DNA from: Escherichia coli
GTDB lineage: Bacteria > Pseudomonadota > Gammaproteobacteria > Enterobacterales > Enterobacteriaceae
Assembly: GCF_003334765.1 (NCBI RefSeq)
Contig: NZ_QOWT01000050.1
Length of the DNA stretch: 19,733 bases
Strand: one strand, 5' to 3'
A model generated the notes under the pieces. It ran no database searches, was not told the origin of the DNA, and saw nothing but the letters and a program-made list of their open reading frames with translations. The first letter of the stretch is position 1. Every line of letters starts with the position of its first letter. This document shows positions 6,083 to 7,696 of the stretch, one piece after another. A program made the translations under genes and the position numbers.

Positions 6083-6784
6083 TTAACATTCTTTCCATAC
6101 CGGAACCAAGATTGCAGGTACTGTATATAAATCAATATCGTCGTGCGCCAGAAAACCAATGAAAGAGCGTTTTTCTATTTTCTCAACAATCCTCTGACCG
6201 ACAATCATGGGAACATATTTATACTCAGGAAGAACCGTCTCTGGCGTGCCAATAATCACACTTCCACTGACTTCACTCAGGTGTTCAGGTAATCGCCGCG
6301 ATAACGTACTCATAAAGGAAACATCCACAATCACACCATTTTCCGTCGTCAACCACGCATGAAAGTTAAACCCCGAGTGATGTCTAAAATCTTCAGGCTG
6401 AATCCCTTTTTCAGACCAGCGCTGAAAATCCGCAACTGACGGATTGTAAATAAATCGTTCCTGTTTCCAGAGTTGTCCAACGGTAACCCATACCCGACAT
6501 TCAAGGATATTCTCAAAATATGGCTGAAAATAATGACTCCACTTTAAGCATTGTCCTGCTGAAGCGGAAAAGTCTGTCACACCAGACTGCAGACAGACAT
6601 GACTGAATACATCCTGATAATCATATTCTTTGTTTTTTGTGACCCCATTCCATTCTTCATTAAATCCTAGCCTTTTTGTAAAAGAGAAGGCTTTATGTAA
6701 ATTATCTGAGTAATCAGATTCAGGATGAAATACTAATAAATCTTTTTTACAGAAACTAAAGTATCGTAACAGATGGCCAAACAT
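6083..6784 (-). CDS. Hypothetical protein, 233 aa, no recognisable domain
   Basis: ORF track 6083..6799; start placed at MFGHLLRY... because GGAGA lies 7 nt upstream. AT-rich coding sequence. Separated from the upstream gene by about 350 bp and a hairpin, so probably its own transcription unit. Confidence 0.6.
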   Translation of the reverse strand: MFGHLLRYFSFCKKDLLVFHPESDYSDNLHKAFSFTKRLGFNEEWNGVTKNKEYDYQDVFSHVCLQSGVTDFSASAGQCLKWSHYFQPYFENILECRVWVTVGQLWKQERFIYNPSVADFQRWSEKGIQPEDFRHHSGFNFHAWLTTENGVIVDVSFMSTLSRRLPEHLSEVSGSVIIGTPETVLPEYKYVPMIVGQRIVEKIEKRSFIGFLAHDDIDLYTVPAILVPVWKEC

Positions 6785-7090
6785 TAAATGTCTCCCCAAT
6801 ACATAACCCTATATGTCAGATACTCTGAACCTGAAGAATTATAAAGAATGTTGACTAGTCGTAAAATCCTGCTTTATGCAAATATACGTAAAGTCTCTCT
6901 TTACTGCCATTAGCCATTTCAGTAGTACGCTCAGAATATGGCGCCGATACGCTTGCGGATCGATGCCATTCAGACAGCAGGTCCGTTCACTACCGTAATC
7001 GCTACCGAAGAACACATTGATTGCCCCTCAATAATCCTGCTGTTAACATCAAAATTGTTGGTCGGGCTCGATTTATTTAATTGTGTAAAC

Positions 7091-7113
7091 AGGGCCTCTC
7101 AGCGAAAGGCCCT
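7091..7113 (-). terminator. Candidate intrinsic terminator after the 188-aa gene
   Basis: 7-bp stem AGGGCCT/AGGCCCT with 9-nt loop, 17 nt downstream of the stop at 7130; followed in the minus sense by GTTTACACAATTAAAT, a weak U-tract. Confidence 0.35.
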
Positions 7114-7129
7114 TATGCATCACCTGACG

Positions 7130-7696
7130 TTAAAAGTCACTACACCCAAGATGACGTTCAATGGTACCATGTGATTCAATGTAAGCCCGGGCCGTCTGTT
7201 CCAGTACAGCAGGCTCAGCGTTGTATGTGTTAGCTGCATCAAATACCAACGACAGCACTTCAGGATACACAACCAGATGTGTAATGGAGTTATCTTCACC
7301 CAATACTTTTCCCCACGCCTGCTCAATCAGATTTCTGAGAACCACCACCTCACGACTCTTACACCAGACATCGTTATTAAGTAGCAGCACCATAAGATAA
7401 GGAGTGGTATCGTTAGCCACAGCTTCCCTACTCCAGAGATAATATAAAGGGGTGGGCTCAACAGATTGCTCTTTACGTCGCTTACACTGCAAATATTCAG
7501 AAATGAGTCTATGCAGTTCACCAGTAAAATCAGCCATCAGAGAGGGAATGGCCTTATTAATACCCTGCCCTGGTATTAATTTAAATTGTAATAATTTAAT
7601 TTCAGGATGTGTGGCTGCAGCCCGATACAGAGTTGCAAGGACACACTTTTGCCAGAGGGCGTTACAGGAAAGCTTAACATTTGATTCTGTATACAT
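7130..7696 (-). CDS. Hypothetical protein, 188 aa, no recognisable domain
   Basis: Clean ORF with AAGGTG 7 nt upstream of the ATG; translation MYTESNVKLSCNALWQKCVLATLYRAAATHPEIKLLQF... No motif recognised. Confidence 0.6.
   Translation of the reverse strand: MYTESNVKLSCNALWQKCVLATLYRAAATHPEIKLLQFKLIPGQGINKAIPSLMADFTGELHRLISEYLQCKRRKEQSVEPTPLYYLWSREAVANDTTPYLMVLLLNNDVWCKSREVVVLRNLIEQAWGKVLGEDNSITHLVVYPEVLSLVFDAANTYNAEPAVLEQTARAYIESHGTIERHLGCSDF

What the first reader, a model, noticed from the sequence alone, without database searches (positions are those of the whole stretch)
6083..7696. Two uncharacterised proteins (233 aa and 188 aa) with no recognisable motifs in the same minus-strand cluster
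Both ORFs have credible ribosome-binding sites and lengths, yet I see no P-loop, nuclease, HTH or transmembrane signature. The 233-aa gene is set apart by a hairpin and about 350 bp, suggesting its own promoter. Single or paired unknown genes in a decayed island are where new accessory functions often lie. The 80-aa ORF upstream (7724-7966) is in the same frame as the 188-aa gene but separated by two TGA codons and lacks an RBS.
Basis: seen in the sequence. Interest (0 to 1): 0.5.

Follow-up and report, generated by a model that had tools for sequence, protein, structure and literature searches.

The report
Unnamed cysteine-enzyme gene beside a Rep-like gene
The two "unknown" genes are unrelated neighbours in a decayed E. 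coli genomic island: one belongs to a named but unstudied family, and the other belongs to an undescribed family of small predicted cysteine enzymes that recurs next to anti-phage and toxin genes in many bacteria.

Summary
Both ORFs are real, but they are not a pair. An IS66 transposase scar separates them. The 188-aa gene occurs in about 1,750 of 5,426 complete E. coli genomes; the 233-aa gene occurs in 67.

**The 188-aa ORF (7130-7696, minus strand)** is not motif-free. It matches Pfam PF11726 (YagK/YfjJ, "inovirus Gp2-type"). It is a divergent paralogue that lacks the His-x-His and Tyr-x-x-Lys motifs of its relatives. The 80-aa ORF upstream is the 3' remnant of a separate 204-aa Gp2-family gene, not part of this one.

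**The 233-aa ORF (6083-6784, minus strand)** has no hit in Pfam, NCBIfam, PHROGs, PADLOC or PDB sequences.
- It belongs to a family of about 390 clusters, all labelled "hypothetical".
- Cys79 and His142 are invariant, and position 154 is always Asp or Glu.
- It is under purifying selection (dN/dS about 0.08) and has low GC.
- It has no conserved partner gene. Homologues sit beside type I R-M, Old, type III CBASS, TIR, SIR2, CDI loci and integrases.

The likely reading is a cytoplasmic thiol enzyme with a role in phage or mobile-element conflict. No experiment supports that role yet.

The parts
6083..6784 (-). ORF A: 233-aa CDS (RefSeq WP_000466879.1, 'hypothetical protein'). Predicted cytoplasmic papain/transglutaminase-like Cys-His-Asp enzyme. 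Codons: Cys79 = 6550-6548, His142 = 6361-6359, Asp154 = 6325-6323.
6791..6797 (-). Shine-Dalgarno GGGGAGA, 6 nt upstream of the ORF A ATG
   Evidence: Read directly from the sequence.
6838..6865 (-). Sigma-70-like promoter candidate for ORF A (TTTACG-16-TATAAT, 10 of 12 matches)
   Evidence: Consensus scan. This is a pattern match only; the number of sites in the region is not above the shuffled expectation.
6839..7015 (-). 3' remnant of an IS66-family tnpC transposase gene. It is the scar that separates ORF A from ORF B.
   Evidence: Positions 6913-6989 are 85-87% identical to IS66/ISEc23/ISEc43/ISEc47 tnpC genes. RefSeq annotates a truncated gene there, and calls the equivalent remnant in ZJ3920 and RM10042 a truncated 'transposase domain-containing protein'.
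7091..7113 (-). 10-bp G+C-rich hairpin 16 nt after the ORF B stop codon; no T-tract follows
   Evidence: RNA fold of 7060-7135: -21.8 kcal/mol, z = -2.7. The terminator scan did not call it.
7130..7696 (-). ORF B: 188-aa YagK/YfjJ ('inovirus Gp2-type', PF11726) protein, WP_000287899.1. A divergent paralogue that lacks the H-x-H and Y-x-x-K motifs of its relatives.
   Evidence: Pfam E = 9e-10. PHROG 32179. RefSeq names. 23% identity to the 204-aa partner, E = 1e-6. Motif alignment. Found in ~1,750 E. coli genomes.
7724..7880 (-). 3' remnant (~53 codons) of the 204-aa 'inovirus Gp2 family' gene that precedes ORF B in intact islands. It forms the C-terminal part of the 80-aa ORF 7724-7966.
   Evidence: DNA alignment with strain ZJ3920: similarity starts near 7880 and runs through the shared stop codon and the 28-nt gap before ORF B. 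Intact tandem pairs are seen in strains W444, ZJ3920 and RM10042.
5800..6007 (+). DUF4222 gene convergent on ORF A, inactivated here by an 11-bp deletion near 5889. It is the constant neighbour of ORF A in E. coli.
   Evidence: Alignment with the intact 72-codon genes of ZJ3920 and RM10042. RefSeq marks it as a pseudogene.

Best explanation
The interval holds two unrelated genes brought together across an IS66 scar. They lie at the junction between the core module and the cargo of a genomic island of the integrase/AlpA/Gp2-like type.

**ORF B (188 aa)** is a lineage-restricted, divergent member of the YagK/YfjJ (PF11726, Rep/G2P-related) family. It normally follows a 204-aa paralogue. It has lost that paralogue's His-x-His and Tyr-x-x-Lys motifs, so it is probably a non-catalytic accessory of the island's core module. 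This last step is inferred.

**ORF A (233 aa)** is the interesting gene. It belongs to an undescribed family of small, solitary, cytoplasmic proteins with a papain/transglutaminase-like fold and a Cys79-His142-Asp154 triad.
- The inferred mechanism is that the thiolate attacks an amide or peptide bond of a protein substrate, giving deamidation, cleavage or transamidation. Its nearest structural neighbours (SseI, PMT, protein-glutaminase, LapG) work this way.
- The family travels as integrase-proximal cargo, next to anti-phage systems and toxin loci.
- Its most likely biological role is therefore in phage or mobile-element conflict, as a candidate single-gene defence or abortive-infection effector.

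**Shown here:** the gene is real and under selection; the family exists with invariant Cys/His/acidic residues; the predicted fold class; the genomic neighbourhoods.
**Inferred:** catalysis, the substrate class, and the defence role.
For: **ORF A**
- No match in Pfam, NCBIfam, PHROGs, PADLOC or PDB sequences.
- An exhaustive profile search finds 387 representative clusters, mostly 180-250 aa.
- Across 78 diverse members, C79, G103, H142, W144, T146 and P192 are invariant, and position 154 is Asp in 69 and Glu in 9.
- The AF2 model has pLDDT 93.7 and pTM 0.89. Cys79 is the first residue of helix 79-94, His142 opens strand 142-147, and Asp154 ends the next strand 152-154.
- Within E. coli, dN/dS is 0.08-0.09; GC is 39.5% against 47.5% for the window.
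- It is present in 67 of 5,426 complete E. coli genomes, always on the chromosome.

**Neighbourhoods of homologues**
- Type I R-M.
- P2-Old-like nuclease, conserved across Klebsiella, Kluyvera and Erwinia.
- capH-capP plus type III CBASS (cyclase, HORMA, TRIP13, NucC) directly upstream in two Pseudomonas genomes. The shared DNA block ends just after the homologue.
- ThsB-like TIR; SIR2/PDC-S65; GmrSD plus AAA_15; NERD-helicase.
- CdiA/TPS loci.
- tRNA-integrase ends of islands.
- No recurrent partner gene.
- Absent from phages.

**ORF B:**

**Island type:** islands with a similar core, including a Gp2-like protein, are reported to carry variable defence cargo (bioRxiv 10.1101/2024.08.29.610337).
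Against: - No experiment and no expression data exist for this gene or family.
- The defence role rests only on neighbourhood. About 7 of 16 independent contexts hold recognised defence genes, and I ran no background control. The same islands carry toxins (CDI, Fic) and anti-restriction genes (ArdA), so the direction of the conflict role is open.
- In this window the neighbouring cargo has decayed, so the gene may be a stranded passenger.
- Some E. coli alleles are disrupted: an IS1 insertion in strain 3908 and a premature stop in WP7-S17.
Confidence: 0.6

Rival explanations
1. ORF A is an anti-defence or establishment factor of the mobile element. It would inactivate a host immune protein by cleavage or deamidation when the island enters a new cell.
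For: It lies close to the integrase in several islands. In Providencia it sits one small gene away from ArdA anti-restriction. Islands of this kind carry KlcA/ArdB-type genes (PMC6174562). A solitary enzyme with no partner gene fits known anti-defence proteins.
Against: It is absent from phage genomes, from viral structure libraries and from plasmid leading regions: no hits in phages or BFVD, and only two weak plasmid hits. In Pseudomonas, Klebsiella and related genera it is the terminal gene of cassettes that are themselves defence systems (CBASS, Old).
Confidence: 0.15
2. ORF A is an interbacterial toxin or effector delivered by T6SS, CDI or TPS machinery, or an orphan toxin module.
For: The structural neighbours include secreted toxins (SseI, PMT, RavJ, Ceg10, SpvD). 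Homologues lie beside CdiA/TPS genes in E. coli RM10042, Providencia and Collimonas, and at the edge of a T6SS cluster in Klebsiella and Kluyvera.
Against: There is no signal peptide, PAAR, Rhs, VENN or other delivery domain, and no fusion architectures: the proteins are 180-250 aa, and the one long form has no Pfam domain. There is no conserved downstream immunity gene. In Providencia the CdiA toxin already has its own 76-aa membrane immunity gene, and ORF A follows only after a 215-bp spacer.
Confidence: 0.12
3. ORF A and ORF B form one two-gene accessory module or operon of unknown function.
For: They share a strand and are adjacent in all 60-odd E. coli genomes that carry ORF A.
Against: They are separated by an IS66 tnpC remnant and a hairpin. 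ORF B occurs in ~1,750 genomes and ORF A in 67. ORF B homologues are confined to E. coli and close relatives, at 76% identity or more. ORF A homologues in other genera never have a YagK/YfjJ neighbour.
Confidence: 0.03
4. ORF A is a non-catalytic protein, for example an immunity, scaffold or regulatory protein, that merely retains a papain-like fold.
For: Catalytically dead papain-like domains exist. There is no biochemical evidence here, and the fold matches are weak.
Against: Cys79 and His142 are invariant, and residue 154 is always acidic, across 78 sequences that share only ~17% mean column identity. Conservation of that kind is expected of a working active site, not of a scaffold.
Confidence: 0.1

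Closest known systems
Tox-PLDMTX family (Pfam PF15645): Salmonella SseI and the Pasteurella multocida toxin C3 domain, Cys-His-Asp glutamine deamidases
   Different: There is no sequence or profile similarity. By my recollection the SseI triad is C178/H216/D231, which gives spacings of 38 and 15 residues against 63 and 12 here. ORF A has an extra N-terminal helical region and a beta-hairpin at 98-113. It has no secretion or translocation domain. It occurs in free-living soil and water bacteria, so it is not a host-targeted effector.
DUF2026 (Pfam PF09641; PDB 2HLY, Atu2299)
   Different: DUF2026 has Ser in place of the nucleophilic Cys (PMC10318531), whereas ORF A has an invariant Cys. Neither ORF A nor any of 78 relatives matches the Pfam model.
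Bacterial transglutaminase-like cysteine proteinases and protein-glutaminases (LapG/BTLCP, TglA, PF01841-type cores, Gln_deamidase_2)
   Different: LapG and protein-glutaminase are exported, whereas ORF A has no signal peptide. There is no HMM match, and no calcium-site or pro-peptide features are evident.
YagK/YfjJ family (PF11726, formerly 'Inovirus_Gp2'/DUF3296) of E. coli CP4-type islands (applies to ORF B)
   Same: ORF B matches the Pfam model (E = 9e-10). In intact islands it sits in tandem after a full-length family member, as in ZJ3920 and W444.
   Different: The match covers only model positions 26-135 of 170. ORF B is 23% identical to its 204-aa partner. It has Y-L-M where relatives have H-Y-H or H-I-H, and Y-I-E-S where relatives have Y-L-T-K or Y-L-A-K. 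The family itself has no assigned function.

Membership tests
Papain-like / transglutaminase-like cysteine enzyme superfamily (ORF A) | Nucleophilic Cys at the N-terminus of an alpha-helix | tested here: met
   Cys79 is invariant in 78 of 78 sequences. It is the first residue of predicted helix 79-94 in a model with pLDDT 93.7.
Papain-like / transglutaminase-like cysteine enzyme superfamily (ORF A) | His on a beta-strand, with a third polar or acidic residue on the adjacent strand | tested here: met
   His142 is invariant and lies at the start of strand 142-147. Residue 154 is Asp in 69 and Glu in 9 sequences, and lies at the end of strand 152-154.
Papain-like / transglutaminase-like cysteine enzyme superfamily (ORF A) | Overall fold similarity to solved members | tested here: met
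Papain-like / transglutaminase-like cysteine enzyme superfamily (ORF A) | Triad residues within hydrogen-bonding distance, and thiol-dependent catalysis | not testable with these tools
Tox-PLDMTX (PF15645, SseI/PMT) (ORF A) | Match to the family HMM, or profile similarity to SseI | tested here: not met
   No Pfam hit for ORF A or for any of 78 relatives, even at E <= 10 for ORF A. hhalign of the family profile against SseI gives probability 0.6%.
DUF2026 (PF09641) (ORF A) | Match to the family HMM | tested here: not met
Known or candidate anti-phage defence proteins (PADLOC-DB v2) (ORF A) | Match to a defence-protein HMM | tested here: not met
   No family matched at E <= 0.1. The neighbours of homologues do match: Old, cyclase/HORMA/TRIP13/NucC, capH/capP, ThsB and PDC-S65.
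Defence-island gene by neighbourhood criterion (ORF A family) | Enrichment next to known defence genes, above background | tested here: inconclusive
   About 7 of 16 independent contexts have recognised defence genes within ~6 kb. The sample is small and there is no background control.
YagK/YfjJ, PF11726 (ORF B) | Match to the Pfam model | tested here: met
   E = 9.1e-10, residues 52-157 against model positions 26-135 of 170. The precomputed Pfam assignment of its 90%-identity cluster agrees.
HUH-type Rep / G2P replication initiators (ORF B) | His-hydrophobic-His metal-binding motif and a catalytic Tyr motif | tested here: not met
   The 204-aa partner has H-Y-H and Y-L-T-K, and it hits PF23343 REP_ORF2-G2P (E = 5.8e-4). 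The window's 199-aa paralogue has H-I-H and Y-L-A-K. ORF B has Y-L-M and Y-I-E-S at those columns. Reading these as HUH and Tyr motifs rests on my own knowledge of the superfamily.
IS66 family (spacer remnant) | Nucleotide identity to the 3' end of IS66 tnpC genes | tested here: met
   Positions 6913-6989 are 85-87% identical to many annotated IS66-family tnpC genes. A 58-aa translation gave no NCBIfam hit, probably because it is too short.

The most novel reading that the evidence does not exclude
The ORF A family is a new single-gene immune effector. It would be a cytoplasmic Cys-His-Asp deamidase or protease that, on phage infection, modifies a host or phage protein to abort infection. A possible variant is that it works as an accessory output or regulator of neighbouring systems: it is the terminal gene of the capH-capP-CBASS III cassette in Pseudomonas and of the Old cassette in Klebsiella, Kluyvera and Erwinia.
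Probability: 0.3. Interest if true: 0.65.

Novelty: new variant of a known kind. Interest (0 to 1): 0.42.

Why it matters
ORF A is the E. coli representative of a widespread family: about 390 clusters at 50% identity, mostly from Proteobacteria. No database names this family. It has a clear catalytic signature and recurs in defence and competition islands.

If it proves to be a defence or counter-defence enzyme, it would add a compact papain-fold effector to the immune repertoire. That would also give a function to hundreds of "hypothetical" genes. The E. coli copy is easy to test.

The rest of the finding is ordinary. ORF B and the 80-aa ORF are a known island core gene and a gene remnant. 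Recognising this prevents them from being reported as novel unknowns.

Tried and rejected
- **Library searches for ORF A.** Pfam, NCBIfam, PHROGs, PADLOC and PDB sequence searches, with the single sequence and with a 78-sequence profile, all returned nothing meaningful.
- **hhalign of the family profile against full-length SseI** (taken from Gifsy-2): no alignment of the catalytic regions.
- **Phage origin.** tblastn against 50,697 phage records found nothing. BFVD gave no hit at E <= 0.001. IMG/VR returned only the same E. coli island. Plasmids gave only two weak Pantoea hits.
- **Conserved partner gene.** All-against-all BLAST of ORFs from 15 loci and of the immediate neighbours found none. 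A toxin-immunity or two-gene-system reading was therefore set aside.
- **CdiI immunity reading.** Rejected, because in Providencia a 76-aa membrane protein occupies the immunity position.
- **"Split gene" reading of the 80-aa ORF plus ORF B.** Rejected by alignment with intact loci.
- **Domain fusions.** The one long family member examined (P0113, 350 aa) has no Pfam domain.
- **RNA genes.** Rfam and tRNA scans of the window found nothing.
- **Locus retrieval.** Only the close subfamily could be fetched.
- **Literature.** Searches for the protein accessions, and for papain-like or transglutaminase-like defence genes, found nothing on this family.
- **Triad geometry.** It could not be measured because model coordinates are not exposed.
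Full report
**Where the window comes from.** The 5900-8100 stretch is 100% identical to chromosomes of several E. coli strains, including GF43 and NRZ14408. RefSeq annotation of those records lists, around the finding:
- ISEc38, a Mu-transposase remnant, and a truncated DUF4222 gene;
- a 233-aa "hypothetical protein" (WP_000466879.1) and a truncated hypothetical or transposase fragment;
- a 188-aa "inovirus-type Gp2 / YagK/YfjJ domain" protein (WP_000287899.1);
- two "zinc ribbon" proteins, a second Gp2-type protein, an Hha-like gene and an AlpA regulator.

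This is a decayed integrase/AlpA-type genomic island.

**Checking the observation.** Both ORFs exist as described, with good Shine-Dalgarno sequences.
- The spacer is 345 bp.
- The hairpin after ORF B is real: a 10-bp stem at 7113-7091, z = -2.7. It has no T-tract and was not called as a terminator.
- A sigma-70-like promoter (TTTACG-16-TATAAT, 6865-6838) lies just upstream of ORF A. Promoter-like sites in the region are not more frequent than in shuffles.
- The spacer is not neutral DNA. Positions 6913-6989 are 85-87% identical to the 3' end of IS66-family tnpC genes, so an IS66 scar separates the two genes.

**ORF B and the 80-aa ORF.** ORF B matches Pfam PF11726 (YagK_YfjJ_C, E = 9e-10) and PHROG 32179. 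It is therefore not motif-free.
- In better-preserved islands (strains W444, ZJ3920, RM10042) it lies 28 nt downstream of a 204-aa "inovirus Gp2 family" gene.
- DNA alignment shows that only the last ~53 codons of the window's 80-aa ORF (about 7880-7724) correspond to the 3' end of that gene. Upstream of that point, similarity is lost.
- The 80-aa ORF is therefore the tail of a truncated neighbour. The first "TGA" is that gene's natural stop codon.
- ORF B is a distant paralogue of the 204-aa protein (23% identity, E = 1e-6).
- The 204-aa protein covers the whole PF11726 model and also touches PF23343 REP_ORF2-G2P.
- In a five-sequence alignment, the 204-aa protein has H-Y-H and Y-L-T-K, and the window's 199-aa paralogue has H-I-H and Y-L-A-K. 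ORF B has Y-L-M and Y-I-E-S at those columns.
- I read those columns as the HUH and catalytic-Tyr motifs of Rep proteins; that reading is from my own knowledge. On it, ORF B is probably catalytically inactive.
- Its close homologues (76% identity or more) are confined to E. coli and near relatives. The gene is in ~1,750 of 5,426 complete E. coli genomes.
- The family has no known function.
- In Pseudomonas fluorescens, genomic islands that share an integrase, alpA and a Gp2-like protein in their core carry variable defence cargo (bioRxiv 10.1101/2024.08.29.610337).

**ORF A: a real gene with no name.** It has no hit in Pfam, NCBIfam, PHROGs, PADLOC or PDB sequences.
- It is in 67 of 5,426 complete E. 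coli genomes, always chromosomal, in two allele groups of 97.6-100% identity.
- Between alleles there are 11-13 synonymous against 4 non-synonymous differences, giving dN/dS of 0.08-0.09. Its GC content is 39.5%, against 47.5% for the window. It is therefore a horizontally acquired gene kept under purifying selection.
- In E. coli it is always convergent with a small DUF4222 gene, which carries an 11-bp deletion in this window.
- It lies between the Gp2/YagK core and variable cargo: type I R-M in ZJ3920 and WP7-S17, and a two-partner-secretion haemagglutinin in RM10042.

**The family.** The word-indexed search found 11 clusters, in Kluyvera, Klebsiella aerogenes, Providencia and metagenomes.
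- A profile search of 1.84 billion representatives found 387 clusters at E <= 1e-3, almost all 180-250 aa.
- In 78 diverse members (mean column identity 17%), C79, G103, H142, W144, T146 and P192 are invariant. T101 is present in 77 of 78. Position 154 is Asp in 69 and Glu in 9. Gln precedes the Cys in 55.
- None of the 78 has a Pfam domain.
- Every database name found is "hypothetical" or "uncharacterised", apart from two or three evidently spurious labels.

**Structure.** AlphaFold2 with the 78-sequence alignment gives pLDDT 93.7 and pTM 0.89. Cys79 starts helix 79-94, His142 starts strand 142-147, and Asp154 ends strand 152-154.
- A published classification places SseI (Tox-PLDMTX), 2HLY (DUF2026), PMT and protein-glutaminase among the transglutaminase-type families of the papain-like superfamily (PMC10318531).
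- The scores are low, and hhalign finds no profile link to SseI. ORF A is therefore a distant, separate family within the superfamily.
- Foldseek against AFDB50 returns 147 hits, and none carries an informative name.

**Neighbourhoods elsewhere.**
- Klebsiella aerogenes, Kluyvera and Erwinia psidii: the homologue lies directly after a 568-aa P2-Old-like nuclease (PADLOC Old, E = 1e-77). The shared DNA block ends right after the homologue.
- Kluyvera: the order is tRNA-Arg, integrase, homologue, Old.
- Two Pseudomonas genomes: the homologue is the last gene of a capH-capP, cyclase, HORMA, TRIP13, NucC cassette (type III CBASS). The 92.7%-identical block ends 20 bp after its stop codon.
- Paraburkholderia: a ThsB-like TIR gene lies upstream.
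- Other members sit between a type I R-M system and GmrSD/AAA_15 genes, next to a SIR2 protein matching PDC-S65 and near TraG, or near a NERD-helicase and an SNF2 helicase.
- Others lie among Fic/VbhA and Phd modules, next to integrases, or after UmuC on an element with a tyrosine recombinase.
- Providencia: the order is tRNA-Phe, integrase, ArdA, homologue, with the homologue just downstream of CdiA and its 76-aa membrane immunity gene.
- Collimonas also has a CdiA-like gene nearby.
- No neighbouring gene recurs across contexts.
- The family is absent from phage genomes and viral structure sets.

**Interpretation.**
- *Shown:* a selected gene, a sizeable family, an invariant Cys/His/acidic trio in the canonical positions of a confidently predicted papain-like fold, solitary gene organisation, and residence in mobile islands beside defence and toxin systems.
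- *Inferred:* it is an active thiol enzyme acting on protein amide or peptide bonds, and it functions in phage or mobile-element conflict.
- I put about 0.8 on the enzyme and fold claim, and about 0.3-0.35 on a defence role specifically.
- The rivals are anti-defence (about 0.15), a delivered toxin (about 0.12) and a non-catalytic protein (about 0.1).

**Verdict.** ORF B and the 80-aa ORF are ordinary: a known family and a gene remnant. ORF A is a modestly interesting, testable, unnamed family within a known superfamily.

Noticed in passing
L020 3275-8656 and L021 3271-8656 (Pseudomonas spp.): A 5.4-kb block, 92.7% identical between two Pseudomonas genomes, carries capH, capP, a CD-NTase, HORMA, TRIP13, NucC and then the ORF A homologue. 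The block ends 20 bp after the homologue's stop codon, so the homologue travels as the last gene of a type III CBASS cassette.
   Followed up: partly
L011, L013 and L023, about 5650-8701 (Kluyvera, Klebsiella aerogenes, Erwinia psidii): A P2-Old-like nuclease gene followed by the ORF A homologue is conserved across three genera at the edge of a T6SS cluster. Similarity stops just after the homologue. In Erwinia psidii the homologue appears to be frameshifted.
   Followed up: partly
window 8168-8979 (-) and 9345-9944 (-): Two overlapping 'zinc ribbon' genes (141 and 129 aa) and a second, intact Gp2-type gene (199 aa, with H-I-H and Y-L-A-K motifs) lie upstream of the finding. None has an NCBIfam match, and their functions are unknown.
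   Followed up: partly
window 5800-6007 (+): The DUF4222 gene that is always convergent with ORF A in E. coli carries an 11-bp deletion here. Whether DUF4222 and ORF A are functionally linked is unknown. The small convergent gene in Providencia (50 aa, signal-peptide-like) does not look related.
   Followed up: partly
window 3733-5352 (+) and about 5407-5719 (-): An intact ISEc38 (ISL3 family) lies next to a Mu-transposase-domain remnant. Together they replace the cargo that sits beyond DUF4222 in other strains (type I R-M, or a TPS haemagglutinin).
   Followed up: no
L005 (E. coli WP7-S17-ESBL-01) 7001-7759; hit H56 (strain 3908): Some E. coli alleles of ORF A are damaged. One has an altered 5' end and a premature stop six codons before the normal stop, and another has an IS1A insertion. 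The gene is therefore dispensable in at least some backgrounds.
   Followed up: no
L018/L019 7331-7876 and L025 7253-7765: In Erwinia oleae and Pluralibacter, a lipoprotein-like gene (lipobox signal peptide, 181 aa) lies 8 bp upstream of the ORF A homologue; in Collimonas a 170-aa one lies about 110 bp upstream. The two lipoproteins are not detectably related to each other.
   Followed up: partly
AFDB50 hits: A few family members carry the UniProt names 'TmRNA', 'Putative TmRNA' or 'Tail protein from Bacteriophage'. These look like annotation artefacts. One untested possibility is that the islands sit next to ssrA.
   Followed up: no
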